Below are positions 3,680 through 58,100 of a stretch of DNA of 64,000 nt, piece after piece (the stretch's first letter is position 1; each line of letters opens with the position of its first letter). This stretch comes from a virus, in IMG/VR virus record IMGVR_UViG_3300005991_000001; one strand, written 5' to 3'. The notes beneath the pieces were generated by a model. It was not told the origin of the DNA. It saw only the letters and a program-made list of their open reading frames with translations, and did no database searches. The position numbers and the translations under genes are program-made.

Positions 3680-5884
3680 TTAAGCTTTATTTCCTTGCTT
3701 TAATGTGATGTCACGACTTGTTTTTGAATCCTCAATAAATGCAGTTTTTTCCATATCCAACTCATGTGTAAGCAATTTATCATCAACTTGTGCTTGTCTT
3801 TGATTTGCAGATTCATCAATAATAGATTGTTGTTGTTGAGCCATTGCAACTTGTTGTTCCGGAACTCGTTGAGCGTTAATTTTGTCAAGCTCATATTGCG
3901 CTTGCAATTTCTCTCTTTGGTATTCACGCATGGCACGGGCAATCATGGTCGTGTTTGCTCTGTCAAATAAGTTTGAGAAGCGAACAGAATCAATTAATTG
4001 GGCTTGAAGCAAGGTAAACAACAATGCGTTCCCTGCTTGTACTCCTTGTTCACGGCTTTCAGATCGCTTAACAGCTATTCGGTAATCCATGAGTGCGTGA
4101 TCATCTGTTAGTCGGATTGAAACAGACCCTTTATCACCAACCATCATAGATAATTTTTGAGGATTATTGATGTATATTTCTTTTCCTACGCTTGCTATTT
4201 GCTGAAACACACCGTTTAATATTGATGTTAATGCTGCATAAAAAGGCTCTTGAACAATTGACCCACGCTGTATTTGGGCATCCAAAACACCAACCAATAC
4301 ATCTTGACCCCCTTGTGTTCCTGTCATTGCATCATTTACGCCTGTCACATCCTGAATCATTTTATCTATTTCCCCTAAAACCTGAAACATTTGATATGTG
4401 CCTTGACCAATATTTGTTCCATACGTACCAACGGCATTTTGAACAGAACCAACCCTTGATGTGTCAACTGTAATTGGTTTTGATCCGTTTATTTTACGCA
4501 TTGTTTCTGCCTCTCCGTCTGAATCACTAATGGCATCTTCTGAAATCACTGTTCCTGTTCCACGCATATTGATAATGTGGCTTTCCACAACGGACATAAT
4601 CCTGTTGTGAAATCGTTGCGGATCAATTACATCGTCAAGTGGAGTAAGCACATTACCTCTTTCGTAATCCCATGTACCGATCTTGTATGGGAAGTAGCAC
4701 TCGGAAGGTTTTCGGACGTATTTTTCTCCATAAGGAACAAGACCGTATTCTAAAACAATATCACCTGACTTGCTTCCGATTTCTTCCCCTGGAATAATTA
4801 CAGCGTACCGTGTAAATGAATGATAAACGGTTTCTTTTAATTTACCGTTCATTCGTTTTTTTTCATCCTCGGTTGGGGCTTCAATTAAATCCTTGTCGGT
4901 ATATCCAAGACCGTCATTAATGTAGCAGAAGTACGGATAACCATACTCGTCTTTTACCCATCCAGCTTCTTTTTTCTCAATATCTTTCCAATACACATTA
5001 TATACAGGAACTTTACCTGCTGTGTTTACATAAACGTTATTTATGAATCGGTGAATATTTAGGCTTCCATTTAGATTTCCATAGTTCTTAATAGATTCCA
5101 TGTGTAATTTTTCGATGTTTTGGTATTTCTCAAAAATACTTGGGGCATCATAATAACCCCAATCAAATTGATATTCAGCATCACGTAAATCACGCTTCAT
5201 GGCTGACATATCCCACCCAAAAAAGAAAGGAAGAACCACTCCACCTGTGTAATCTCGGTTTAACTCACCTCCTTTGTAAATTCCCATTCCATACAAAGCA
5301 AGGCTTCGAGTGAGTTCTTCTTTTATTTCAGATGTTAGTTTTATTTCGGTGGATATGTACTCCATTAAATTATTAATATCCTCAACGTAGTCTTCAACAA
5401 AAGTGTTTTCAAAAATTACCTCGGTTTCTTCTTCTGTATCACCAATAGGTAAATTATCTTTTATAATACCCTCAAAAAACGGAAACTGCTTACTTACTTG
5501 CTCAAAGCCTTTAATGCGTTTGAGTTCCATTTCTCGTTTGTTTATTACGAACGGTGAAATACATTGTGCCTCGGCATCATACGATAACCTTATAGCGTTA
5601 CCCATGAATTGCCGAACCATCGGTTTAATAATATTTTTAACCCATTTTGTTCTGTGCCTTGAATCCCCTGATTCATCAAGGAAAAAGTTTACGGTATCTT
5701 CTTCAAAAATCCATTGACCATCACCTCCTTCGTAAAAAGAATAGTTTATCAGGCATTTTTGAATGTATCTCAAATAAGTAGGGTTATTCATTGATCCAAG
5801 GCAGTATGTAGCCATTTTAGCATGATAAGCCTCGTCTTTTACAGAATCAAGCCTATTTGGTCTTTGTCCTTGTTTATTCCACAT
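3680..5884 (-). CDS. putative portal protein
   Basis: 734-aa ORF immediately upstream of scaffold and capsid. Its start overlaps the stop of the upstream gene at 5884. Size and position fit a portal, with no motif-level proof. Confidence 0.6.
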   Translation of the reverse strand: MWNKQGQRPNRLDSVKDEAYHAKMATYCLGSMNNPTYLRYIQKCLINYSFYEGGDGQWIFEEDTVNFFLDESGDSRHRTKWVKNIIKPMVRQFMGNAIRLSYDAEAQCISPFVINKREMELKRIKGFEQVSKQFPFFEGIIKDNLPIGDTEEETEVIFENTFVEDYVEDINNLMEYISTEIKLTSEIKEELTRSLALYGMGIYKGGELNRDYTGGVVLPFFFGWDMSAMKRDLRDAEYQFDWGYYDAPSIFEKYQNIEKLHMESIKNYGNLNGSLNIHRFINNVYVNTAGKVPVYNVYWKDIEKKEAGWVKDEYGYPYFCYINDGLGYTDKDLIEAPTEDEKKRMNGKLKETVYHSFTRYAVIIPGEEIGSKSGDIVLEYGLVPYGEKYVRKPSECYFPYKIGTWDYERGNVLTPLDDVIDPQRFHNRIMSVVESHIINMRGTGTVISEDAISDSDGEAETMRKINGSKPITVDTSRVGSVQNAVGTYGTNIGQGTYQMFQVLGEIDKMIQDVTGVNDAMTGTQGGQDVLVGVLDAQIQRGSIVQEPFYAALTSILNGVFQQIASVGKEIYINNPQKLSMMVGDKGSVSIRLTDDHALMDYRIAVKRSESREQGVQAGNALLFTLLQAQLIDSVRFSNLFDRANTTMIARAMREYQREKLQAQYELDKINAQRVPEQQVAMAQQQQSIIDESANQRQAQVDDKLLTHELDMEKTAFIEDSKTSRDITLKQGNKA

Positions 5885-18196: not shown

Positions 18197-18288
18197 GTGT
18201 GCTTGTTAACCGTGGAGGTTGAAGCTTCTCTAACGCGCAGTAAGTTTTTGGGTTCGACTCCCATTTTAAAAAACGGCACACTTTTTTA
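18197..18288 (+). ncRNA. structured intergenic element with a T-loop-like hairpin and U-tract (candidate ncRNA)
   Basis: GTGTGCT (18197-18203) pairs with GGCACAC (18275-18281), followed by TTTTTT. Inside are hairpin TTAACC/GGTTGA (18206-18222) and GGG-TTCGACT-CCC (18250-18262). Does not fold as a tRNA. Confidence 0.3.
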
Positions 18289-18318
18289 TTTAACTCAATA
18301 AATTTAAAAATAAAACAA

Positions 18319-20823: not shown

Positions 20824-20875
20824 TTCGTATTTTGGATATTAGAAATTAACAGGAACATCGTCAATTGTTGAGTTA
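20824..20875 (-). promoter_or_regulatory. conserved bipartite intergenic module, copy 2
   Basis: Minus strand TAACTCAACAATTGACGATGT - 14 nt - AATATCCAAAATACGAA, ending 3 nt before the ATG at 20820. Confidence 0.5.
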
Positions 20876-20889
20876 TAGGCAAATAAAAA

Positions 20890-21024
20890 TTATTCGCCAC
20901 TCAATCCAAGTTCTTCTGCCTTATAACCTTTTTCTTCTAACCATTCTTTAAAGTCATACCACAAACCTTTTTCATTGGTGTAGTCCTCAATAATTTGTGC
21001 AATTTCTTGTGCTGTTAATTTCAT
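20890..21024 (-). CDS. small acidic hypothetical protein
   Basis: Track ORF 20890-21126 trimmed to MKLTAQEIAQIIEDY... (44 aa). The longer N-terminus runs through a structured GC-rich element. Confidence 0.4.
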   Translation of the reverse strand: MKLTAQEIAQIIEDYTNEKGLWYDFKEWLEEKGYKAEELGLSGE

Positions 21025-21052
21025 TTTAATAATTTTTATCAGCCTATAACAT

Positions 21053-21162
21053 ACGCTATACAAAAGTGGGGCTGTGTGCCAAATTTGTACAGTTGTGCAT
21101 CTAATTTGCTTTTGTGCGGTAAGCAAGGGTTGTGCATCTTTATCCCCACCTTCGTATAGCGT
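21053..21162. other. GC-enriched structured intergenic element
   Basis: ACGCTATAC (21053-21061) pairs with GTATAGCGT (21154-21162). GTGGGG (21066-21071) pairs with CCCCAC (21144-21149). Direct repeat GTTGTGCATCT at 21092 and 21129. Confidence 0.45.
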
Positions 21163-22200: not shown

Positions 22201-22575
22201 CTAATCTATAAAGTAAATATACCCAATCAACCACGCTATTCCAACAATAATAGCTGATCCAGCCAAAATAAAAACCGCTTGGATTTTCTCTTTCAGCTTT
22301 TTAATTTTATGAATTTCTTCTACCTCGGTCATGATCTCTTTTTCTGAAAACATCAAAGGAAATTTGTTGCGATTTCTTGATAGTGGAATGATTTTAGGTA
22401 TTCCAGATTGTTCATAACAGATCACCCCGTCATGAGTTTTCAGTACATACATATCTGCATTACTAAAATAGTGATCTGTTCCAATGATCTTAAATAATCG
22501 ACCTAAATCGCCTTTAAATTTTAGGTGTATTTTTCCGTTTTTCAGATCGGAATTTTTTTGTAGTTTTCTTTTCAT
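22201..22575 (-). CDS. hypothetical protein with C-terminal transmembrane helix
   Basis: 124 aa, ending in AVFILAGSAIIVGIAWLIGYIYF. Confidence 0.6.
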   Translation of the reverse strand: MKRKLQKNSDLKNGKIHLKFKGDLGRLFKIIGTDHYFSNADMYVLKTHDGVICYEQSGIPKIIPLSRNRNKFPLMFSEKEIMTEVEEIHKIKKLKEKIQAVFILAGSAIIVGIAWLIGYIYFID

Positions 22576-22577
22576 TT

Positions 22578-22629
22578 TTCGTGTTTTAGGTATTAAAATA
22601 TTACGTAAACTTCGTCAATTATTGAGTTA
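22578..22629 (-). promoter_or_regulatory. conserved bipartite intergenic module, copy 3 (variant spacing)
   Basis: Minus strand TAACTCAATAATTGACGAAGT - 6 nt - AATATT - 9 nt - AAAACACGAA, ending 2 nt before the ATG at 22575. Confidence 0.5.
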
Positions 22630-22656
22630 TAAAACATTAAAACGATTTTATAACAT

Positions 22657-22768
22657 CAAATATAAGAAATGTGGCAGTTGGAATCGAACCAACCTTTTGA
22701 CCTCACACTGTGTCTGGCAGCACTGTACCAGAGAGGGAATCGAACCCATGCCACATTTCTTATATTTG
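22657..22768 (-). ncRNA. tRNA-like RNA with two T-arms and a 20-bp closing helix
   Basis: Perfect inverted repeat CAAATATAAGAAATGTGGCA (22657-22676) / TGCCACATTTCTTATATTTG (22749-22768). The minus strand carries GGG-TTCGATT-CCC and GTTGG-TTCGATT-CCAAC, the latter abutting an acceptor-like 7 bp. Confidence 0.45.
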
Positions 22769-22784
22769 CGTTTATAACCAATAG

Positions 22785-23066
22785 CTACGATTTAAAAATT
22801 TCTTCTAAGCATTTATTTTTAATCCTAAACTCATACCCGTTTTTACAAGGACAAAGTTTATTCCTTTTAACTTTTATTTCCTTAATAAATGTATCCACGT
22901 AACATTTTTTCATATTGCTTTTTGTATAAAAATCACGTTTATAAATATTGTAAGTTCCATATTCTTCACACCAAGTTTTTTCAATAGGAATAAACTTTGA
23001 TTCTATTAGTGTAAAAACTATTTGTGGATTCTCTAATTTATGTCTTAAAAATATTTCGTTTGTCAT
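22785..23066 (-). CDS. hypothetical protein, first gene of the leftward 23.1-19.1 kb block
   Basis: 93-aa track ORF. A minus-strand -7 box lies 34 nt upstream. Confidence 0.6.
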   Translation of the reverse strand: MTNEIFLRHKLENPQIVFTLIESKFIPIEKTWCEEYGTYNIYKRDFYTKSNMKKCYVDTFIKEIKVKRNKLCPCKNGYEFRIKNKCLEEIFKS

Positions 23067-23099
23067 TTTTATTTAGTTTTCTAATTAAATTCGTTTCCA

Positions 23100-23107
23100 C
23101 AAAAATA
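23100..23107 (-). promoter_or_regulatory. candidate -7 box (leftward)
   Basis: Minus strand TATTTTTG, part of a roughly 35-nt promoter segment duplicated in inverted orientation at 23341-23375. Confidence 0.45.
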
Positions 23108-23113
23108 AACATA

Positions 23114-23134
23114 ATAATTCAATTACGCATTATT
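23114..23134. repeat. left arm of 21-nt inverted repeat (operator candidate)
   Basis: ATAATTCAATTACGCATTATT. The reverse complement matches 23341-23361 at 20 of 21 positions. Confidence 0.6.
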
Positions 23135-23192
23135 ATTATCTAATTTATATTAATTCTAAATAACATAATTTGTGTTTATTAAATATATTACA

Positions 23193-23206: not shown

Positions 23207-23278
23207 TGTGTTTTCATTAGGTTAAATTAAATTTGTTTTAGGTGAAAGAGTGATTGTTTAGATGATCACTCTTTTTTT
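23207..23278 (+). ncRNA. small RNA candidate 1 (about 70 nt)
   Basis: No ORF between the -7 box and a strong intrinsic terminator: AGAGTGAT (23246-23253) / ATCACTCT (23264-23271) followed by TTTTTT. Confidence 0.35.
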
Positions 23279-23340
23279 GTGCTTAATAATTTCCTTGCTG
23301 TTATTTAGAACGATTCTAAATATTGATTATTTTTCATTAA

Positions 23341-23361
23341 AATAATGCGTAATTGGATTAT
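23341..23361. repeat. right arm of 21-nt inverted repeat (operator candidate)
   Basis: AATAATGCGTAATTGGATTAT, immediately upstream of the rightward -7 box. Confidence 0.6.
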
Positions 23362-23367
23362 TATATA

Positions 23368-23375
23368 TATTTTTG
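23368..23375 (+). promoter_or_regulatory. candidate -7 box (rightward 23.4-44.5 kb block)
   Basis: TATTTTTG, 29 nt upstream of the ATG at 23404. Confidence 0.45.
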
Positions 23376-23403
23376 CTCAAACAAATTAATTTAAAACGAA
23401 AAC

Positions 23404-29388: not shown

Positions 29389-29505
29389 CGTTTTGCAGAT
29401 TTGTGAAGTTAAAAATGGCTACTTCACACTTCATTTTAAGCACTAAACCAAATGCCATTTTTAATTTAACAAATGTGCTGTTAGCAGCAGTTAATTTTAG
29501 AAACA

Positions 29506-29793: not shown

Positions 29794-29800
29794 TTGCTGC

Positions 29801-29852
29801 TAACTCAACAATTGACGAAGTCCGAGTTAAAAAACAATATTTAAAACACGAA
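29801..29852 (+). promoter_or_regulatory. conserved bipartite intergenic module, copy 4
   Basis: TAACTCAACAATTGACGAAGT - 14 nt - AATATTTAAAACACGAA, ending 2 nt before the ATG at 29855. Confidence 0.5.
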
Positions 29853-41082: not shown

Positions 41083-41179
41083 AGCGAGGTGGCTCAGTTG
41101 GTTAGAGATTGACACGCATTCGGGTTAAGATTCGGATTAAGAGGTGTATAGGTCGGTGGTTCGAGTCCACCCCTCGCTA
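41083..41179 (+). tRNA. tRNA-like gene with aberrant 46-nt anticodon region (degenerate or non-canonical tRNA)
   Basis: 7-bp acceptor AGCGAGG/CCTCGCT, D-arm GCTC-AGTTGGTTA-GAGA, variable-loop-like AGGTC, T-arm GGTGG-TTCGAGT-CCACC. The centre holds the tandem 12-mers ATTCGGGTTAAG and ATTCGGATTAAG, and no 5-bp/7-nt anticodon arm can be drawn. Confidence 0.4.
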
Positions 41180-50675: not shown

Positions 50676-50747
50676 CAAAGTAATAAGAAGGCAATGATAT
50701 ATTTGGTTGTACCAAAAATTATTCGTATATTGGACTGAATAACAAGT

Positions 50748-50812
50748 CGAGAATCGTATAAAGGGAGAGTATATGCAATGCAGGGTTGGTGGTTCGATTC
50801 CACTACTCTCGA
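50748..50812 (+). other. tRNA-fragment-like minihelix (no anticodon arm)
   Basis: T-arm GGTGG-TTCGATT-CCACT followed by ACTCTCG. 5' partner is CGAGAAT (6 of 7 bp) with a TATA-AAGGGAGAG-TATA D-arm-like hairpin, or alternatively GAGAGTA/TACTCTC (7 bp). Only 13 nt sit where the anticodon arm should be. Confidence 0.35.
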
Positions 50813-51011: not shown

Positions 51012-51599
51012 ATGAGCAAGTCAAAAATAAAGTGGTTAAGCAAAGGGAACAAATTTTACGGAACTATCCGTAATTATTTTGGGGGCAGTATGTTGGTTCA
51101 AATCCAACCGATGTGCGACACGTCAAGGGAAAAACAAAAGAAGATAGTCAATCTGATTGAAAAGTTTTACCAAGGAATTGATGATGAATTATCGGTAGAT
51201 GAACTCAAACAAATCATAGATGAAATACGAAATATTAAGATTCGTTCGGGCGACCCGACTACTGAAATAAGCATCATGCTGTCGGCTTATGAGTTTGATA
51301 AGGAGTATAAGAAAGAACCTGAAATATTAGAGAATGGAATTAGATCCCCACAAGCATTATCTTGCTTGATTAATGACGAAACCAATAATCACCCATACAA
51401 AGTGATGGTTGAGAATAACAGCACTAAAGAACAAAAAGAACTTAGGATATTTTGGAGTGGTACAGCAAGTTTTAGCCCTGATATTTTCCCTGATTCATCG
51501 GTTGTGTGCCGAAATGGACTGGGAGACATAAGAGCAATATATGAGGCAGAATACATAAAACTGTATATCGAATACCAAAAATTAGTTGCTCAAAAATAA
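51012..51599 (+). CDS. hypothetical protein
   Basis: 195-aa track ORF, a lone plus-strand gene between late blocks. Contains a perfect T-arm-like 17-mer GTTGGTTCAAATCCAAC at 51091-51107. Confidence 0.55.
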   Translation: MSKSKIKWLSKGNKFYGTIRNYFGGSMLVQIQPMCDTSREKQKKIVNLIEKFYQGIDDELSVDELKQIIDEIRNIKIRSGDPTTEISIMLSAYEFDKEYKKEPEILENGIRSPQALSCLINDETNNHPYKVMVENNSTKEQKELRIFWSGTASFSPDIFPDSSVVCRNGLGDIRAIYEAEYIKLYIEYQKLVAQK

Positions 51600-52125: not shown

Positions 52126-55100
52126 TTAAAACCCACCAAAGTCAAAACTAAATGAATCGGAATTTCCATTTTTCCTACGGTCAGGTTTTAAAATATCACC
52201 TTTTTCATCCAATTCAAATTTTTCTCCGTTAAGTAATTTATCAACAATGTAATCAGGAATTTGTCGTCTTTCAACTCCGTTCGCATCTGCCTTAGTAAAT
52301 TCAAGCAACGTTCCAATTTCTTCGGGTGAATAATTCAATTTTCGCATGGAATAAACCATTTCAGAGGCTTTTTTTACGGATTCATTAATTGTATTGATCA
52401 CAGCTTCTTTTTCATTGTCAACTGAAAATTCACTATCTCCTTGACTAATGTATTTTTTAAGTTCATCATTTGATTTTTGAATCTGAAAAGAAACCGACCT
52501 CATTTTAGATTTAAATGATTTTGGAATATCAATAGTTTTAGTTTTCAAACCTAAAAACCATGAACTCATTTCGTTTTGTAATGTAAACTGCTCATACTCG
52601 CTTTTTTCATTGAAGAAGCCTTTTTTCATTTTTTCAGCCTGTCCGATGATGCTATTTCGGGTCATTTCGTTTAGGAAATATCCAGCACCTTTTAAAGCGT
52701 TTACCCCCATGTTTTCGCCTTTACCAATGGATTTTCCATACTCGCTTTCACCGTTGTAAATATCAATGAGAATATTTAACCCAATATCACCCGAACTATA
52801 CGGCTCTAAAATCGTTCCAAGTCCTGCTGAAAAACCATCTTCTTTGCTTGCTATGTATAATTTTTGCCATTGATTTTGAACGTCAATGTTTGATAAGTCG
52901 ATGTATTGGACGGTGCTTTTTCCATCGCCTCCAGTTACTAAAAGCGAATTGTATTTACGGTAATCCGAAGCAAGACTTCTTAATGCCTCATCTTCATCAT
53001 CGCCCCAATCTTTCATTGAACCGATTATTCCAAGCCCTATAAGAATCTTTGGTGCGTATTTAACAAGTGCTTGAGTGAATGTATTTACCATTGCAAACCC
53101 CGCTAGTTTTTTAGCGATTATCTCATTCATTTTACCAACTTCAACATCAAGCCCTGCCGATTTCATTTCTTTTTTATCTCGAATCAGTTCACCGATATTT
53201 TTTAAAATCTGAACATCATTCCGCATAGATGAAAAACCAAACATAACAAACGTTCCGATGAATGGGTTTTTTGAAATTTCACGGACTAATTCAGGTGTCA
53301 TTTCGTAGTTTGGCATTTGGTTTCTTACTGCACTACTTGCCATTTCTTTAATTTTCTGCTGAACCATTGTTTCGCTCATTCCTTGCTTACGAAATAAGTT
53401 TCCGTAGGTTTGGGCATACTTGTTTTTAAGTGACAAATAAGCTAATGCCTTTGGAATATTATCAGAGAACTGGTAGGATTTATTTTCAGAATCAGAGAAC
53501 TTTTTGTACCGCTGATTGATCGAGTTCATTACCCCGTCAACGAATGCTTTGTCTATTTCACCCTCTTTAGTATAAACCTTTGACATATCATTGATAAGAT
53601 TCGCATCAAGGGAAGTGTTTAAAATACGTTGTTGTACGAGTTCTTGTATCAATTTTCTGTTTGCTGTTTTATTGTTTGCGGTCATTTCAGCAAAAGACGT
53701 AACAAGTGTTGTAACGGCATTGTACATATACCCCGCTACCGCATCTGTTTTTGGTACAAATTTTCTACCAAATATCTTTTTACCTGTGAATCCCATATCG
53801 AAATCCTCGCGCAAAGCACCTGCTGTTTTTACGCCTTTTTTCGCATTGAAACTCGGAAATTCACCCATTTTTATCATTGCCTCAAAAGCACCTAAAACGT
53901 TTCTTGCATTTGAACTAGGGGATCGAACGGTAAGATTTTTCTTAGTTGCTGCTGATAAGAAAGTCAAGGCAGAAAGTAAAGCGTTGCCTTGTTTATTATT
54001 CAGCATTTCAATTCCGAATGGAAGTTTATCGGTTTCTCCTAATCCTTTGTGTGCTGAACTGAAAAATCTGCGTTGTCCGGCTGCAAACATAAAATTGTAA
54101 AATTCTGGAGTAGTCCATTTTTCACCTAAATTCAACGATTGACTTTTTGGAATCTTTATCGAATTTGTAGCGGTTTGCGTACCACTAAATAAGTGTGGCG
54201 CATCTTTGAGTATTGTTTTTTCAAGCTGTGTTTTGTATAAAATATCAGCCTGTTTCACAATGGTTTTTGCGAAGTTAATCATTGGGTCGGTTACTGCGCC
54301 CATGATCATATCGTATTCAGCATCCATTTCAGTCTTTTTCATAAAAGCACTCGCTTGTGTTTTCGTAAGACCGTTTTTAGTGTATAAATCCGTTGTTTTT
54401 TCTTCTTCAACCGAAGTCATTTCATCGAGAAACGCATTTATTTGTTCGGTAGTCATTACAGGAAGATTTACCCCTGCACTCTGCATTGAAATATTATTAC
54501 CGAATGCATGCGTACCCTCTGAATCACTAAATATTGTATCTACCCTCTCAATTACAGGGCTATCAAGACCGACATAAGTTAATTGGTCAATGTAGTTTTG
54601 CATTTCCTTTTTACCATCAAATTTGAGTGTTTGGGATTCTACACCTAACGGACTTAAAAATGATATTTCATATACGTTTTTACTTCCTTCCTTGCTTTTT
54701 TTGTATTTAACCGACCTTGCTACATTTACTTTTTTATTCACCCAATCGTAAGCCATTTCAACTTGCTGCGGGGTCAATGATTTCTTCCAATCATATCCAC
54801 CTACTGTTCGGGCTTTGTAGCTTTTATTAAGGTAAATATCCATGTTTGCCGTCATGGTAACTATCAAATCAGAATCCTTTGAAACAATACCCGAAGCCCT
54901 CAATAATCTTGAAAGACTTGTAACCATGTTTCGCATATTTTGAATGGGATTCTGCAAATACTCTTCTACGTTCGGATCGGCAAAAAACTCGGATCTAAAT
55001 TTAACATCTGTTAATGCTTTTTGTACGTTTTCAAGTGTTGCCTTACGTGTTTCTATTGAAGTATCACCAATCGCATTAAGATAATTATCCAAGCCTTTTT

Positions 55101-58100
55101 TGAGGTCTTTCAATATAAACTCACCTTTTTTATTCACCTTAGAAACTAATCCTTGTGTTTTTTGGACTTGCTCAACAATAGCTTTATTTGCCCCTCGGCT
55201 AAGTGGGATCAATTTATCTCTAAACCAAATCCTCAATTTATCGGCATTACCTAATTCGCTTAAAATACCCTGTTCAATTTTTAATTGTGGAGTTTTTGTT
55301 TTATCGTAAATCTGTGCAAATTGCTCTTTTGTCATATTACTGACTGATTTTCCATTAAGCAATTCACGAGCAATTTTATCAACGTATTGTTCAAGCGTAT
55401 CGGTGTTGGTATTTATTTTACCGCTTACCAATCCAAGTTTTTTAGCGATTGCTCTCCAAAAATCTTTTAACCAAGTACGCAATGGTTTGTCGTTTTTATC
55501 GTTTACTATTTTGTAGCCTCTATCGGAGATCATTTTAGCCAACGCTTCTTTTTGTACTGCGGTTTTATTACTGTGGATATCGGAATACCCCTTGTCGTTC
55601 ATCACTTCATCAATGTACGCTTTCCCTGCCTCGGAATTTTCAATTAATGATTTTCCTTTTTCGAGAATACTTGAATCCACTTGTTCGGCTAAATCCATCC
55701 AAATATGAGCATATTCCTCAATTGCTGTATTCTCATTTGCTTTGTCAGGATTAAGGTAAATCGTTCCTGTTTTACTATCAACAAAAGCTGCTATTTTTGG
55801 GTCTTTACCAAGTCGTTTTGCATTGGAAACGAATGCGCCTCTATCGGTTTGAACGTCAATATTTTTAAAGTTTTCTCCAAGTAATTCCTGAACTTTATTC
55901 ATAAACCTTGGTGCTTCACCTCGTCTTTGCGTTGACTGCGGATTCATATAAACATCAGAATCATCCTCCCAACCGTAAGGCTCTGAAACAACTTCTTCAA
56001 GGTCTATTTGTGGCTTTGTGGTTTTTACGGATTCACCTTTCGATTTAGCTTCTACCTCACGAAGTTTTACCTGTCCTGCGGTGGTATATCTTTGTTTAGC
56101 TGAATCCAAGTTGTATTTTTCAGCCAAGTATTCGTCCTCGGTAATTTCGCCTTTATCGAATAATTCTTTTAACTCGGTGGCTATTGGTTTTCCTGTTTGC
56201 TGATTTACCGTGAACTGCGTAATATCCTCGTCACCTTTAAATTCGGCAGGGATTTTTTCAATGAGTGATTTTACTTCGGTGAATTTAGTGTTTTGTTTAA
56301 TTGTTGTGTTTTTTGCATCAGTTGATTCAGTTATCAAGGAATCCTTAACAACTGATTTTTCTTCAACCGCATCAGCCCTTTCATACTGACCGATAAAGGC
56401 TTCTTCTGAAATTTGCTCTTGGTCAAAATAAGACTGTTTTTCTTCATCGGATAACGCATCGAAAAAGGTTTCTGCTTCATCAATAAATTCAGGCTGTAAT
56501 TCTCCAATTTCACCATATTTTTGAACATAGTAATCTTCCTCGCTCACTTGCTTAGAAACCGAATCTATCATTGACCTTGTGCCTAAATTTTGGCTTACAA
56601 CGGATTCAATTGCGTTTCGATAATCAGTACTATCAAATTGAGGTAAGGCATCTTTATTTTGATTCCATAATAAATCAGCAAGCCCCTCAATTGTTTGACC
56701 TGACTTATTGTTCATTAACCCAATTCGGGAATGAATTTCACCTTTAGTTGGTTTATCCTTTTTGTTCCCATAAATAGATTCAATTACAGACGAATTAATT
56801 TTACCCCCTCCGATGAAATACTGCATAGTTTTTTCTTCAGGAGTAAACACATCTTTCTGTACCGCTTCTTTGGCTGTGGGATTTTTTATTTGCTCAATTG
56901 CAATTCTTTTTCCCTTTGCTTCTTGATTTGAGCCGCTATCTCCAAGATCACTTGCTCCTTTGTTTTCTGTTTTTCCATTTTCAATTATTGTTTGTTTTTC
57001 ATCCAACTGTTCGGGTTTTCCGATAGGTTCAACTTTTTCGGTCTTACTTTTACCGCCGACTTCTGAACCTACTTTTGTGGCAGTTTTATTAATTTCTTCC
57101 TGAATGATTATTTTTTCAGACACATCTTTTGCAACTTCATCAGCTTCAATATTAGCATCCATAACATCGTCCATTACCTCTTGAACTACATTATCCACAA
57201 CGGCTTGTTTTTCTTTCGGTAAATCATCGTAAATATCCTGTGACGATTGTGGTGTAGCAAGTCCGAACGCACCACCCATAATGAACGATGAAACCACAAG
57301 TTGCATTACATTATCCATGTTTCCATATCTCTCACCTACTTCATCCCAAAATCCACGGGTACGTAATTCATCGTTATAGATTGAAGTGAGTTCCTGTAAG
57401 CTTTCTTCGGTAACTTCACCTGACCCACGAGCAACAATTTGCTGAAAAACAGAAACGGCTTTTGGTGTGCTTTCTCCAAAAATAGATTGAGTAAGTCCAA
57501 GTGCTTTTTTTGTAGTTCCATACAATTTGATAAGTGAGTTTGCCCCAAGTGTGCCAACAAAACCCTGTAAGAATTGAAGTTCATTATTCGGGTCATTAAA
57601 TACTTCTCCTGCGATTTCAAATTGTAAACCTTGCTCAATCGGTTGCTTAATGAATCTACCCGTTTTGGTAGAATTGAAAAGGTAATCGTCAAATGCTTTT
57701 GTAGTGGTTTCGATTCCTTTAATGATTTTCTGTGTGTCTTGTGCTTTGTCAATCAATCCAACAAGCCTAACACCTCCTTTGAGTAATCCCATTGGTGCGC
57801 CAAGTGCAGGTGCGGAAACAACAATTTGACCTACGATTGCTGCGGTTTGTCCTGTCATTTCTCCGAATCCCTCCAATGATGCCCATGAAGTTTCACCACG
57901 TTTTTTGAGGTCGTTTAACTTAGTTGCTGCCACTACATCTGCTTTATCAAAACCCTCACTTTCGATTGTTTGTTTGATAACTTTTGCAGCTTCCGTTTGG
58001 CTTAAATATCCCTCTGCTTCTGATGTACTTGGTTTTAGTCCTTTAGCTAGTCCATTAGTAAATGATTCCCAAAAACCACCGCTTTCCTTTGTAAATCCAA

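What the first reader, a model, noticed from the sequence alone, without database searches (positions are those of the whole stretch)
22657..22768. tRNA-like RNA with two T-arms, a non-7-nt central loop and a 20-bp perfect closing helix
The minus strand reads CAAATATAAGAAA-TGTGGCA-TG-GGG/TTCGATT/CCC-TCT-CTGGTA/cagtgc/TGCCAG-ACACAGTGTGAGGTCAAAAG-GTTGG/TTCGATT/CCAAC-TGCCACA-TTTCTTATATTTG. The 7 bp TGTGGCA/TGCCACA abut a perfect T-arm exactly as a tRNA acceptor stem does. Three things break the tRNA model. A second T-loop hairpin sits where the D-arm should be. The central hairpin can only have a 6- or 8-nt loop. The acceptor helix continues for 13 more perfect base pairs. Both arms of the repeat also carry outward-facing TATATTTG boxes. 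The element fills a 209-bp gap inside a minus-strand operon, and the two plus-strand track ORFs over it are implausible. A 20-bp perfect duplex is an RNase III-type substrate, so the element could be cut out of the polycistronic RNA. Possible roles: tRNA mimic or decoy, Y-RNA-like (YrlA-type) module, or a frameshift-type tRNA with an 8-nt loop.
Basis: partly seen in the sequence, partly recalled or inferred. Interest (0 to 1): 0.7.

Follow-up and report, generated by a model that had tools for sequence, protein, structure and literature searches.

The report
Hairpin-closed double-T-arm tRNA-like phage element
Between two early genes of an uncultured phage lies a 112-base element in which a perfect 20-bp helix encloses two exact copies of the tRNA T-arm; it is real and tRNA-derived but not a working tRNA, it most likely marks or processes the end of a transcript, and no relative of it exists in any database searched.

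Summary
Window 22657-22768 (minus strand) carries a perfect 20-bp inverted repeat around 72 nt. The interior contains two exact GGTTCGATTCC T-arm motifs. The second is a 5-bp T arm abutting a 7-bp acceptor-like helix with no spacer, as in tRNA.

It is not a tRNA. ARAGORN and Rfam (tRNA, tmRNA, Y-RNA families) find nothing. It has no D arm, no 7-nt anticodon loop and no CCA.

It is a singleton. No copy or tRNA source was found in IMG/VR, GTDB genomes, JGI metagenomes or GenBank phages, and the nearest relative phages lack it. Covariation therefore cannot be tested.

It lies exactly between a gene stop and a stem-loop plus repeated promoter-like box. A second 110-nt hairpin-closed element occupies the equivalent place before the next box.

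Best reading (about 0.4): a tRNA-derived, cis-acting RNA module for 3'-end formation or processing at a transcription-unit boundary. Rivals are a released tRNA-mimic small RNA, a decayed tRNA or recombination relic, and a MITE-like element.

In IMG/VR, five independent phage contigs carry double-T-arm elements closed by 14-22-bp G·U-containing helices. Such architectures therefore recur in phages and match no Rfam family.

The parts
22749..22768 (-). 5' strand of the closing helix. 22768-22756 is the A-rich lower 13 nt (CAAATATAAGAAA). 22755-22749 is the acceptor-like TGTGGCA.
   Evidence: Perfect 20-bp complement of 22657-22676. Pair probabilities 0.89-1.0.
22735..22747 (-). T arm 1: GGG/TTCGATT/CCC. 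It has a 3-bp stem and lies 1 nt after the 5' strand, in the D-arm position.
   Evidence: Exact T-arm consensus GGTTCGATTCC. GGGTTCGATTCCCTC also occurs in other phage loci as the 3' part of 5-bp T arms (GAGGG/CCCTC).
22714..22731 (-). Central hairpin CTGGTA/CAGTGC/TGCCAG. The stem is 6 bp including one U.G pair, with a 6-nt loop, or an 8-nt loop if the A-U pair is open.
   Evidence: Pair probabilities >0.99. Present in both the MFE and the cloverleaf-like fold.
22694..22713 (-). 20-nt linker ACACAGTGTGAGGTCAAAAG. It can form a small CAC/AGT/GTG hairpin and contains an AGGTC variable-loop-like stretch.
   Evidence: Sequence. Energy evaluation.
22677..22693 (-). T arm 2: GTTGG/TTCGATT/CCAAC, a canonical 5-bp T arm.
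   Evidence: It directly abuts the 3' strand with a 0-nt junction, as between the T arm and acceptor stem of tRNA.
22657..22676 (-). 3' strand of the closing helix. 22676-22670 is TGCCACA (acceptor-like). 22669-22657 is the U-rich TTTCTTATATTTG, which includes a TATATTTG box.
22626..22654 (-). Small stem-loop GTTATAAAA/tcgttttaatg/TTTTATAAC, 2 nt after the element. Its 3' arm runs into the promoter-like box.
   Evidence: Sequence. The same GTTATA...TATAAC arrangement precedes box 2, where the repeat (20872-20894 / 21028-21050) flanks a 44-aa ORF.
22590..22631 (-). Repeated promoter-like box TATAACTCAATAATTGACGAAGTT. TTGACG is at 22618-22613, followed by a 17-nt spacer and TAATAC at 22595-22590. 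It lies upstream of the ATG at 22575.
   Evidence: Three copies of the 24-mer with at most 3 mismatches, against 0 expected. The core TAACTCAAYAA occurs exactly five times.
22785..23066 (-). Upstream gene (93 aa, no family). Its stop codon lies 16 nt before the element.
22201..22575 (-). Downstream gene (124 aa, C-terminal hydrophobic segment, no family).
   Evidence: No homolog among 5.8 billion proteins other than itself.
21053..21162 (-). Second hairpin-closed element in the equivalent position before promoter box 2. The stem is 19 bp including two G.U pairs that form only on the minus strand. The interior is 72 nt and contains AGATGCACAAC twice. It has no T arms.
   Evidence: Fold z-score -5.06. 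Like the finding, it is followed by ATGTTATA.

Best explanation
The element is a tRNA-derived structured RNA module, transcribed as part of the leftward (minus-strand) early RNA of an uncultured phage whose host is probably in Bacteroidota. It is not a decoding tRNA.

Position. It sits at the 3' boundary of the first leftward transcription unit (the 93-aa gene). Immediately downstream are a small stem-loop and a repeated promoter-like box that serves the next unit.

Proposed mechanism (inferred, not shown):
1. As the RNA emerges, the local hairpins (T arm 1, the central hairpin, T arm 2) fold first.
2. The 3' strand then closes the 20-bp helix. This helix stacks coaxially on T arm 2, giving about 25 bp of continuous duplex capped by a T loop.
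3. That duplex serves as a double-strand-specific endonuclease (RNase III-type) site, as a barrier to 3'-to-5' exonucleases, or both. With its U-rich 3' arm it may also act as a weak or regulated terminator.
4. The outcome is that the upstream message is separated from, and stabilised independently of, the downstream unit.

The acceptor-plus-T-arm minihelix is the part of tRNA that RNase P, RNase Z, CCA-adding enzyme, TruB and TrmA recognise. It may therefore give the host tRNA machinery an extra handle on the cut product.
For: Shown:
- The closing helix and T-arm motifs are far beyond chance.
- The tRNA-sense strand is the same strand as both flanking genes.
- The extension of the helix uses a G.U pair valid only on that strand.
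- The order along the strand is stop codon, 16 nt, element, AT, stem-loop, promoter-like box, gene.
- A second 110-nt element has a 19-bp stem with two minus-strand-only G.U pairs and an identical 72-nt interior length. It sits in the same place before the next copy of the box and is followed by the same ATGTTATA.
- A third element (18197-18281, + strand) is a hairpin containing a T arm. It lies in a gap between two + strand genes, carries a U.G pair in its stem, and is followed by a T-run and the TAACTCAATAA box core.
- In independent IMG/VR phages, long helices closing double-T-arm elements carry 15 G.U pairs and no internal A.C pairs. Such helices are therefore RNA-level structures on the T-loop strand.

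Inferred from established knowledge:
- Duplexes of about 20 bp in intercistronic spacers are RNase III sites in T7 early RNA.
- REP-type hairpins stabilise upstream mRNA.
- Acceptor/T-arm minihelices are substrates of the tRNA end-processing enzymes.
Against: - No transcript data are available.
- There are no homologs, so there is no covariation. The helix is perfectly Watson-Crick and therefore strand-neutral in itself.
- The genome uses ordinary short GC-rich hairpin plus T-run terminators elsewhere, for example after 41179 and at 23244-23275. Termination or stabilisation alone does not explain a 72-nt interior with two exact T-arm motifs.
- The paired leader and trailer would hinder RNase P and RNase Z unless another nuclease cuts first.
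- The closest relative phages do without the element.
- The energy model prefers a rod without T-arm hairpins.
Confidence: 0.4

Rival explanations
1. The element is a stand-alone, trans-acting tRNA-mimic small RNA. It is excised from the early transcript, for example by RNase III within the 20-bp helix. It then acts as a decoy or ligand for proteins that read the tRNA T arm or acceptor stem. Candidates are modification enzymes, CCA-adding enzyme, RNase P/Z, EF-Tu-like factors and tRNA-targeting defence toxins. It would not decode.
For: - Both T loops keep the exact universal consensus, and T arm 2 with its acceptor-like helix reproduces the 12-bp tRNA minihelix.
- IMG/VR phages carry analogous double-T-arm elements closed by 14-22-bp G.U-containing helices (L017, L031, L044, L067, L078), against none expected from shuffled flanks. 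Several lie inside tRNA gene arrays, where discrete RNAs are made.
- The same phage encodes other non-canonical tRNA-like RNAs: 41083-41179, which has its own terminator, and about 50743-50812.
- Bacterial and phage Y RNAs set a precedent for a long terminal helix plus a tRNA-like module (PMC4201824).
Against: - No recognisable promoter lies directly upstream.
- No partner protein gene (TROVE/Rsr, RtcB, ligase, nucleotidyltransferase) was found in the window.
- The IMG/VR analogs are not homologs. They score only 20-28 bits with a model of this element, and they have a 10-31-nt GG-containing segment before T arm 1 that this element lacks.
- T arm 1 has only 3 bp.
- There is no conservation in relatives.
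Confidence: 0.25
2. The element is a non-functional relic. It would be the decayed remains of one or two tRNA genes, or of tRNA 3' fragments of the kind left by recombination at T-loop att cores, which became bracketed by a recently formed inverted repeat. The RNA structure would be incidental.
For: - The window has no canonical tRNA but several degenerate tRNA-like pieces, as expected for a lineage losing tRNA genes.
- T arm 1 looks truncated inside its 5' stem strand. GGGTTCGATTCCCTC followed by TCTGGTA-C reads like the 3' end of a tRNA with a GAGGG/CCCTC T stem.
- The unit T arm + CTGCCA(G)ACA occurs twice in direct orientation, which suggests duplication.
- A perfect 20-bp repeat with no G.U pairs fits a recent origin.
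- The element is absent from all relatives sampled.
Against: - Neither T arm with its 3' strand matches any tRNA in one genome per 185,579 species or in IMG/VR.
- No integrase was found in the window.
- Both 11-nt T-arm cores are still perfect, and T arm 2 with its acceptor-like helix keeps exact tRNA geometry. This is unexpected under free decay.
- A structurally parallel, non-tRNA element occupies the equivalent site one unit downstream. That points to selection for a structure at these sites.
Confidence: 0.2
3. The element is a miniature inverted-repeat (MITE-like) mobile element of 112-130 bp that inserted into the intergenic spacer, comparable to Correia or ERIC elements. It would only secondarily affect RNA processing.
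For: - Size, terminal inverted repeats of 20-29 nt, intergenic location and lineage-specific presence.
- Rfam's only weak matches are to MITE-derived plant miRNA hairpin families. This reflects the long-hairpin shape alone.
Against: - There is a single copy in the 64-kb window.
- The arm is not found in IMG/VR.
- Interior 20-21-mers are absent from GTDB genomes and IMG/VR, apart from one chance coding match.
- No target-site duplication flanks either the 20-nt or the 29-nt arms.
Confidence: 0.07
4. The element acts at the DNA level. It would be a protein-binding or recombination site, a cruciform, or a pair of outward Bacteroidota-type promoters (the TAnnTTTG boxes in both arms). The T-arm-like repeats would be protein-binding direct repeats.
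For: - The perfect, strand-neutral palindrome.
- TATATTTG matches the TAnnTTTG -7 consensus of Bacteroidota promoters (from general knowledge) on both arms.
- Two 11-bp direct repeats lie 56 bp apart.
Against: - TAnnTTTG-type octamers are common by chance in 34% G+C DNA, and no TTTG -33 element is correctly spaced.
- A separate, conserved promoter-like box already serves the downstream gene.
- The direct repeats are the universal tRNA T-arm sequence, which is hard to explain as an operator.
- The neighbouring parallel elements have strand-specific G.U pairs.
Confidence: 0.05
5. The element is a functional decoding tRNA of unusual shape, for example a frameshift suppressor with an 8-nt anticodon loop.
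For: A 7-bp acceptor-like helix, a canonical T arm and a possible 8-nt loop. ARAGORN at 80% threshold proposes 'tRNA-Thr(ggt)'.
Against: - That call is one of 28 mostly spurious hits. It needs a mismatched D stem and anticodon stem and a 26-nt variable region.
- There is no call at default thresholds and no Rfam tRNA hit at E<=10.
- There is no D loop with GG to form the elbow and no CCA, and the 5' leader and 3' trailer are fully paired.
Confidence: 0.02

Closest known systems
Canonical tRNA (Rfam RF00005)
   Same: A 7-bp terminal helix stacked with zero spacer on a 5-bp T arm with the GGTTCGATTCC consensus. A four-way-junction order of helices. Location in a phage genome on the sense strand.
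   Different: A second T-arm copy (3-bp stem) replaces the D arm. The middle hairpin has a 6- or 8-nt loop. The 'variable' region is 20 nt. There is no CCA. The acceptor helix continues for 13 more pairs into the leader and trailer. ARAGORN and Rfam do not recognise it.
Bacterial/phage Y RNAs of the YrlA type (Chen et al. 2014, PMC4201824)
   Same: A long helix formed by the 5' and 3' ends, plus a tRNA-like module containing a T arm. Some are phage-encoded. They are non-decoding tRNA mimics.
   Different: YrlA has the order V-T-acceptor-like stem-D, with the long stem in the anticodon-stem position. It also has a D arm, a GNCGAA(N0-1)G Ro-binding motif and an adjacent Ro60/Rsr gene. None of these is present here, and there is no Rfam match.
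RNase III processing hairpins of phage T7 early/late RNA, and REP-type mRNA-stabilising hairpins (general knowledge)
   Same: About 20 bp of duplex RNA in the spacer between co-directional phage genes, at the end of a message.
   Different: Those are simple hairpins, often with an internal loop. None encloses tRNA-like arms. Cleavage here is untested.
tRNA-like processing signals inside longer transcripts: plant mitochondrial t-elements, MALAT1 mascRNA, gammaherpesvirus-68 TMERs, E. coli mRNAs cut by RNase P (general knowledge)
   Same: An acceptor-plus-T-arm mimic embedded in a longer transcript, which could recruit tRNA end-processing enzymes.
   Different: Those have free or weakly paired leaders and a single T arm. 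Most are eukaryotic or organellar. Here the leader and trailer are perfectly paired.
Uncharacterised double-T-arm elements with long closing helices in IMG/VR phage contigs (L017, L031, L044, L067, L078; also L041, L100, L025:368-465)
   Same: Two GGTTCGATTCC hairpins 35-55 nt apart. T arm 2 directly abuts the 3' strand of a 14-22-bp closing helix. T arm 1 often has a short (3-4 bp) stem. No Rfam family matched the seven loci scanned (L041, L078 and L003/L037/L060; L050; L124).
   Different: There is no sequence homology (20-28 bits). The others have a 10-31-nt GG-containing or D-arm-like segment before T arm 1. Their helices carry G.U pairs. They mostly sit among tRNA genes rather than between protein genes.
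Correia/ERIC-type MITEs (general knowledge)
   Same: A 110-130-bp intergenic element bounded by inverted repeats, which folds into a long RNA hairpin when transcribed.
   Different: Single copy, no target-site duplication, tRNA-like interior.

Membership tests
tRNA | Recognised by standard detectors (ARAGORN, Rfam RF00005 covariance model) | tested here: not met
   ARAGORN finds 0 genes at default settings. Rfam gives no tRNA hit at the gathering threshold or at E<=10 on 22400-23000. Only a forced, mismatched call appears at an 80% threshold, among 28 mostly spurious ones.
tRNA | 7-bp acceptor stem stacked directly on a 5-bp T arm with the GTTCRANYC loop | tested here: met
   TGTGGCA/TGCCACA plus GTTGG/TTCGATT/CCAAC with a 0-nt junction.
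tRNA | D arm with a GG-containing loop able to form the elbow with the T loop | tested here: not met
   The D-arm position is occupied by GGG/TTCGATT/CCC.
tRNA | 5-bp anticodon stem with a 7-nt loop | tested here: not met
   Only 6- or 8-nt loops are possible for CTGGTA/CAGTGC/TGCCAG.
tRNA | Single-stranded 3' end (encoded or added CCA) and aminoacylation | not testable with these tools
   No CCA is encoded. The trailer TTTCTTATATTTG is fully paired with the leader. The mature ends are unknown.
YrlA-type Y RNA | Match to an Rfam Y-RNA or tRNA-clan model | tested here: not met
   No hit in gathering or E-value mode.
YrlA-type Y RNA | Ro-binding strand motif GNCGAA(N0-1)G in the terminal helix (PMC4201824) | tested here: not met
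   The motif is absent from CAAATATAAGAAATGTGGCA and its partner (definition).
YrlA-type Y RNA | Encoded next to a Ro60/Rsr (TROVE) gene | tested here: not met
   No TROVE domain in any ORF of >=120 aa or in the flanking small ORFs. About 9 kb of the source contig lies outside the window.
YrlA-type Y RNA | Arm order V-T-acceptor-like stem-D between the strands of the long helix | tested here: not met
   The order here is T-hairpin-20 nt-T, with the zero-spacer junction at the 3' strand, which is the tRNA order.
RNase III processing site | About two turns (>=20 bp) of duplex RNA in a transcribed spacer | tested here: met
   20 perfect bp, 24 bp with a 1-nt bulge, and 25 bp if T arm 2 stacks on the helix. 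The sense strand is the same as that of the flanking genes.
RNase III processing site | Cleavage by RNase III in vivo or in vitro | not testable with these tools
   No transcript data are available.
Intrinsic terminator | GC-rich hairpin immediately followed by a U tract | tested here: inconclusive
   The consensus scan does not call it. The 7-bp upper helix is followed by UUUCUUAU (6 U in 8), but it closes a 72-nt multibranch domain, and the U tract pairs with the upstream A-rich strand.
MITE | Multiple copies and a target-site duplication | tested here: not met
   One copy in the window. None in IMG/VR or GTDB by arm or interior words. The flanks show no direct repeat.
Phage attP / tRNA 3' fragment | Identity to the 3' end of a host tRNA gene, and an integrase nearby | tested here: not met
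   There are 0 tRNA matches for GGTTCGATTCCAACTGCCACA or GGTTCGATTCCCTCTCTGGTA in one genome per 185,579 species. No integrase domain was found in the window. Only exact words were searched.

The most novel reading that the evidence does not exclude
The element is the most compact member of an undescribed class of phage-encoded 'double-T-arm, extended-acceptor' tRNA mimics. Members would be produced as discrete RNAs. They would not decode. They would engage the host's T-arm/acceptor-reading machinery, or tRNA-targeting defence systems, using two T arms on one long helix. The IMG/VR elements L017, L031, L044, L067, L078 and L041 would be further members.
Probability: 0.2. Interest if true: 0.75.

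Novelty: new variant of a known kind. Interest (0 to 1): 0.5.

Why it matters
If the element works as proposed, a phage has recycled tRNA parts into a punctuation mark for its early messages. That would be a bacterial-virus counterpart of mitochondrial tRNA punctuation and of mascRNA-type processing.

More broadly, the IMG/VR survey shows that RNA elements with two T arms on a long G·U-bearing helix recur in unrelated phages. ARAGORN or Rfam call them only as marginal, over-long tRNAs (for example L067, 94 nt; L060, 113 nt), and none matches any other Rfam family.

These elements are easy to overlook because the detectors either miss them or file them as odd tRNAs. They could be a pool of tRNA-mimic RNAs relevant to phage-host conflicts over tRNA.

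The specific element is short and sharply bounded, so deletion and end-mapping experiments would be straightforward once the phage or a surrogate host is in hand.

Tried and rejected
1. Ordinary tRNA. ARAGORN at default and relaxed thresholds, and Rfam in gathering and E-value mode, reject it.

2. Known RNA family. Rfam returned nothing beyond weak long-hairpin miRNA matches.

3. Homologs for covariation. All of these searches were empty or unrelated:
   - megablast, blastn and tblastn against GenBank phages;
   - exact-word scans of IMG/VR;
   - a structured pattern scan of JGI metagenomes, which gave 8 unrelated hits;
   - the identical Logan contig only.

4. Synteny through flanking proteins.
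   - IMG/VR holds no relatives of the 124-aa or 388-aa proteins.
   - The 124-aa protein has no homolog in the large protein database.
   - Relatives found through the 388-aa protein (L122-L125, L135-L139) are mosaic. They lack the element and almost lack T-arm hairpins.

5. Host tRNA or attP origin. Neither T arm with its 3' strand occurs in any tRNA of GTDB species representatives. The single hit is a chance match in coding DNA.

6. Coding explanation. The 41-codon minus-strand ORF and the two plus-strand ORFs have no family and were not called as genes.

7. Partner genes. No Rsr, RtcB, integrase or reverse transcriptase was found.

8. Single-sequence covariance model. It recovers only architectural analogs at 20-28 bits.

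9. Literature searches for a described double-T-arm phage RNA found nothing pertinent.

10. I did not resolve what the recurrent 57-nt double-T-loop family in IMG/VR is.
Full report
**1. Is it there?**

Yes. On the minus strand, window 22768 to 22657 reads as follows:

CAAATATAAGAAA-TGTGGCA-T-GGG/TTCGATT/CCC-TCT-CTGGTA/CAGTGC/TGCCAG-ACACAGTGTGAGGTCAAAAG-GTTGG/TTCGATT/CCAAC-TGCCACA-TTTCTTATATTTG

- **Inverted repeat.** The 20-nt arm occurs once on each strand and nowhere else. Shuffles give 0.02 expected matches even allowing three mismatches. The repeat extends to 29-nt arms at 90%. In the RNA fold this adds four more pairs after a one-base bulge, including a G.U pair that exists only on the minus strand.
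- **T-arm motif.** The 11-mer GGTTCGATTCC, the bacterial T-arm consensus, occurs twice inside the 72-nt interior. The whole window has 6 hits with at most 1 mismatch, against 0.63 expected.
- **Folding.** The z-score is -6.65.
- **Gap.** The gap between the flanking minus-strand ORFs is 209 bp, as stated.

The linker after TGTGGCA is a single U, and T arm 1 has only a 3-bp stem.
- By nearest-neighbour energy the best fold is not the cloverleaf-like one. It is a rod in which the two T-arm sequences pair with each other through the palindromic UCGA. The rod scores -49.8 and the cloverleaf-like form -45.8 kcal/mol, and T-arm pair probabilities are about 0.02. The closing helix and the central hairpin are robust in both forms.
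- A 41-codon TTG-start ORF on the minus strand spans the element. It has no family match and was not called as a gene on an identical public contig.

**2. What the genome is**

- The window is a phage. It encodes a portal, a large terminase, a DnaB-type helicase, DNA methyltransferases, a YqaJ-type exonuclease, NinG, an HNH endonuclease, a CHAP endolysin and a P22 gp17-like superinfection-exclusion protein.
- It has no DNA relative in GenBank phages, and its portal finds no protein-level match there.
- Genes lack Shine-Dalgarno sequences, G+C is 29-39%, and a distant homolog lies in a Cytophagales MAG. I therefore infer a Bacteroidota host. This is an inference only.
- No integrase, reverse transcriptase, Ro60/Rsr, RtcB or RNA ligase was detected.

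**3. It is not a tRNA, tmRNA or Y RNA**

- ARAGORN finds no tRNA in the window.
- Rfam gives nothing for this region at the gathering threshold. At E<=10 the only hits are weak long-hairpin miRNA matches and a 13-nt tmRNA fragment covering T arm 1.
- At an 80% threshold ARAGORN forces a 'tRNA-Thr(ggt)' with a mismatched D stem and anticodon stem and a 26-nt variable region. This is one of 28 mostly spurious calls.
- The YrlA definition in Chen et al. 2014 is not met. That definition requires the arm order V-T-acceptor-like stem-D, a D arm, a GNCGAA(N0-1)G strand motif and a neighbouring Ro60 gene.
- What is tRNA-like is precise but partial. A 7-bp helix abuts a canonical 5-bp T arm with zero spacer, which is the 12-bp minihelix of tRNA. 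A second, short-stemmed T arm sits where the D arm belongs.

**4. No relatives, no tRNA source**

- The arm and the T-arm-plus-3'-strand words are absent from IMG/VR.
- In one genome for each of 185,579 species, neither GGTTCGATTCCAACTGCCACA nor GGTTCGATTCCCTCTCTGGTA occurs in a tRNA. The one hit is a chance match in coding DNA of a Fibrobacteres MAG.
- A structured pattern returned eight unrelated loci from JGI metagenomes.
- The only other copy is a 100% identical Logan contig.
- The downstream 124-aa protein has no homolog in 5.8 billion proteins.
- Relatives reached through the 388-aa protein are mosaic. They include one with 84% amino-acid identity. All lack the element, and in about 110 kb they contain one convincing T-arm hairpin.
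- Covariation therefore cannot be assessed, and the element is lineage-specific.

**5. Context inside the phage**

This is the most informative evidence. The order on the minus strand is:
1. the stop of the 93-aa gene (22785);
2. 16 nt;
3. the element;
4. AT;
5. a small stem-loop GTTATAAAA/11 nt/TTTTATAAC (22654-22626);
6. a box TATAACTCAATAATTGACGAAGTT, with TTGACG, a 17-nt spacer and TAATAC;
7. the ATG of the 124-aa gene.

The 24-mer box occurs three times with at most three mismatches, against none expected, and its core TAACTCAAYAA occurs exactly five times.

One unit downstream, just after the methyltransferase gene and before the next box, lies a second hairpin-closed element at 21053-21162. 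It has a 19-bp stem with two G.U pairs valid only on the minus strand and an interior of exactly 72 nt with its own 11-nt direct repeat. Its fold z-score is -5.06, and it is followed by the same ATGTTATA.

A third element lies at 18197-18281 on the + strand, in a gap between + strand genes. Its helix has a U.G pair and encloses a T arm (TGGG/TTCGACT/CCCA). It is followed by a T-run and the box core.

This phage therefore places sense-strand RNA structures at the ends of early transcription units, and two of them contain T arms. The genome also holds two further non-canonical tRNA-like sequences:
- 41083-41179 scores 38 bits against Rfam tRNA, has 40 nt in place of the anticodon arm and has its own terminator.
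- About 50743-50812 has an acceptor stem, a D-like arm and a T arm but no anticodon arm.

T-arm-like hairpins number 7, against 1.9 expected.

**6. A wider class**

I scanned IMG/VR for two GGTTCGATTCC motifs 35-55 nt apart. The scan hit its 120-locus limit. The set is heterogeneous: some hits are a normal tRNA followed by a short tRNA-like piece, and about 30 belong to a recurrent family with a 35-nt spacer.

Five independent contigs (L017, L031, L044, L067, L078) have closing helices of 14-22 bp that start immediately after T arm 2. L041 and L100 have imperfect ones. With shuffled 3' flanks, helices of >=12 bp occur 0.04 times per replicate and none reaches 14 bp.

Those five helices contain 15 G.U pairs and no internal A.C pairs. 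They are therefore RNA structures on the T-loop strand. Several lie within tRNA arrays. None matches an Rfam family other than marginal tRNA calls.

A covariance model of the window element scores these analogs at only 20-28 bits. Unlike the window element, they also have a 10-31-nt GG-containing or D-arm-like segment before T arm 1. They are architectural analogs, not demonstrable homologs.

**7. Interpretation**

I commit to a cis-acting, tRNA-derived RNA module for 3'-end formation or processing at a transcription-unit boundary, with confidence about 0.4.

- **Shown:** the anatomy, the strand, the position relative to the stop codon and the promoter-like box, and the existence of parallel structures at equivalent sites.
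- **Inferred:** co-transcriptional formation of the local hairpins; closure of a roughly 25-bp coaxial duplex; cleavage by an RNase III-type enzyme, protection from 3' exonucleases, or both; possible partial termination at the U-rich 3' arm; and possible recognition of the minihelix by tRNA-processing enzymes.

The main weakness is that a plain hairpin would do the same job, and the phage uses plain terminators elsewhere. The two perfect T arms therefore remain unexplained by this reading alone.

That keeps two rivals alive:
- a released, trans-acting tRNA mimic (0.25);
- a decaying tRNA or recombination relic (0.2).

The remaining readings are unlikely for the reasons given under the rivals: MITE-like (0.07), DNA-level (0.05) and decoding tRNA (0.02).

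**8. Novelty and score**

The kinds are known: tRNA-like structures, intercistronic processing hairpins and tRNA relics in phages. The combination was not found in Rfam or in the literature searches. That combination is two exact T arms in tRNA order inside a perfect 20-bp leader-trailer helix at a unit boundary.

I rate it a new variant of a known kind, with interest 0.5. It is genuinely odd and cleanly testable, and it points to a recurrent class of phage RNAs. Against that, it is a singleton with no evolutionary or expression evidence for function.

Noticed in passing
window 41083-41179 (+): A tRNA-like gene that Rfam calls at 38.4 bits and ARAGORN misses. The acceptor stem, D arm and T arm are canonical, but 40 nt stand where the 17-nt anticodon arm should be. 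A hairpin precedes it, and a canonical hairpin plus T-run terminator follows it.
   Followed up: partly
window ~50743-50812 (+): A tRNA-like sequence: CGAGAAT-cg-TATA/aagggagag/TATA-13 nt-TGGTG G/TTCGATT/CCACTA-CTCTCG. It has acceptor-like, D-like and T arms but no anticodon arm. ARAGORN calls it 'tRNA-Ala', 67 nt, only at an 80% threshold.
   Followed up: partly
window 18197-18281 (+): A hairpin (GTGTGCU.GUU / AAC.GGCACAC, with a U.G pair) encloses a T arm TGGG/TTCGACT/CCCA. It lies in a 138-nt gap between two + strand small genes and is followed by TTTTTTATTT and the TAACTCAATAA box core.
   Followed up: partly
window 21053-21162 (-): A 110-nt hairpin-closed element. Its 19-bp stem has two G.U pairs that form only on the minus strand. 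Its 72-nt interior contains AGATGCACAAC twice. The fold z-score is -5.1. It sits before promoter box 2, in the position equivalent to that of the finding.
   Followed up: partly
window 20854-20877 (-), 22608-22631 (-), 29799-29822 (+); core also at 18291 (+) and 19671 (-): A repeated promoter-like box TATAACTCAAYAATTGACGAWGTT (TTGACG, 17-nt spacer, TAATAY), followed by a conserved A-rich leader (AAAAYACGAAA) before the ATG. The 5' TATAAC is the right arm of a GTTATA...TATAAC stem-loop. The arrangement resembles the promoter/stem-loop cassettes described in T4-type phages (resemblance from memory).
   Followed up: partly
window 20872-20894 / 21028-21050: A 23-nt inverted repeat (91%) flanks a 44-aa ORF that was called as a gene on the identical Logan contig. 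A whole small gene therefore sits inside the stem-loop of a promoter cassette.
   Followed up: no
window 23079-23139 / 23336-23396, and nested 23143-23165 / 23299-23321: A large imperfect palindrome (61-nt arms, 80%) fills the divergent intergenic region between the leftward and rightward early operons. A strong bidirectional terminator-like hairpin lies at its centre (23244-23275). It could be an operator or origin region.
   Followed up: no
window 29395-29478 (+): Another intergenic hairpin with 25-nt arms (88%), a 34-nt loop and a fold z-score of -3.5, between two + strand genes.
   Followed up: no
window 51092-51108 (+): A T-arm-like hairpin GTTGG/TTCAAAT/CCAAC lies inside ORF 51012-51599. 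Its stem sequence is the same as that of T arm 2 of the finding.
   Followed up: no
window 52126-60567 (-): A 2813-aa ORF whose only Pfam match is a below-cutoff SHOCT hit. The portal (3680-5884) has no tblastn match in GenBank phages. This is a very divergent phage lineage.
   Followed up: no
IMG/VR loci L004-6, L009, L025, L047, L048, L050, L054, L058, L061, L062, L068, L070, L081, L082, L090, L097, L099, L103, L110, L117, L119, L120: A recurrent RNA family with two T arms exactly 35 nt apart. It has a conserved spacer (TCG..GAGG.CTGGTGAGAAG.GAG) and repeated CTGGTGAG motifs downstream. In several loci it follows a tRNA 3' end. The members scanned against Rfam (L004, L009, L050, L054, L061, L062) gave no match. 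Its identity is unresolved.
   Followed up: partly
L041:10290-10405 (-); L025:368-465 (+): L041 carries a double-T-arm element with a closing helix of about 17 bp and a central GCTGGTGCTGCC segment resembling the window's CTGGTACAGTGCTGCC. It sits behind a strong promoter, just upstream of a GOLLD RNA and a tRNA array. L025 carries a 20-bp closing helix with a single T arm abutting the 3' strand.
   Followed up: partly
L124:2330-2770 (+): A 440-nt non-coding stretch in a distant relative phage contains one T-arm hairpin (ACGAG/TTCGAAT/CTCGT). No Rfam match at E<=1.
   Followed up: partly
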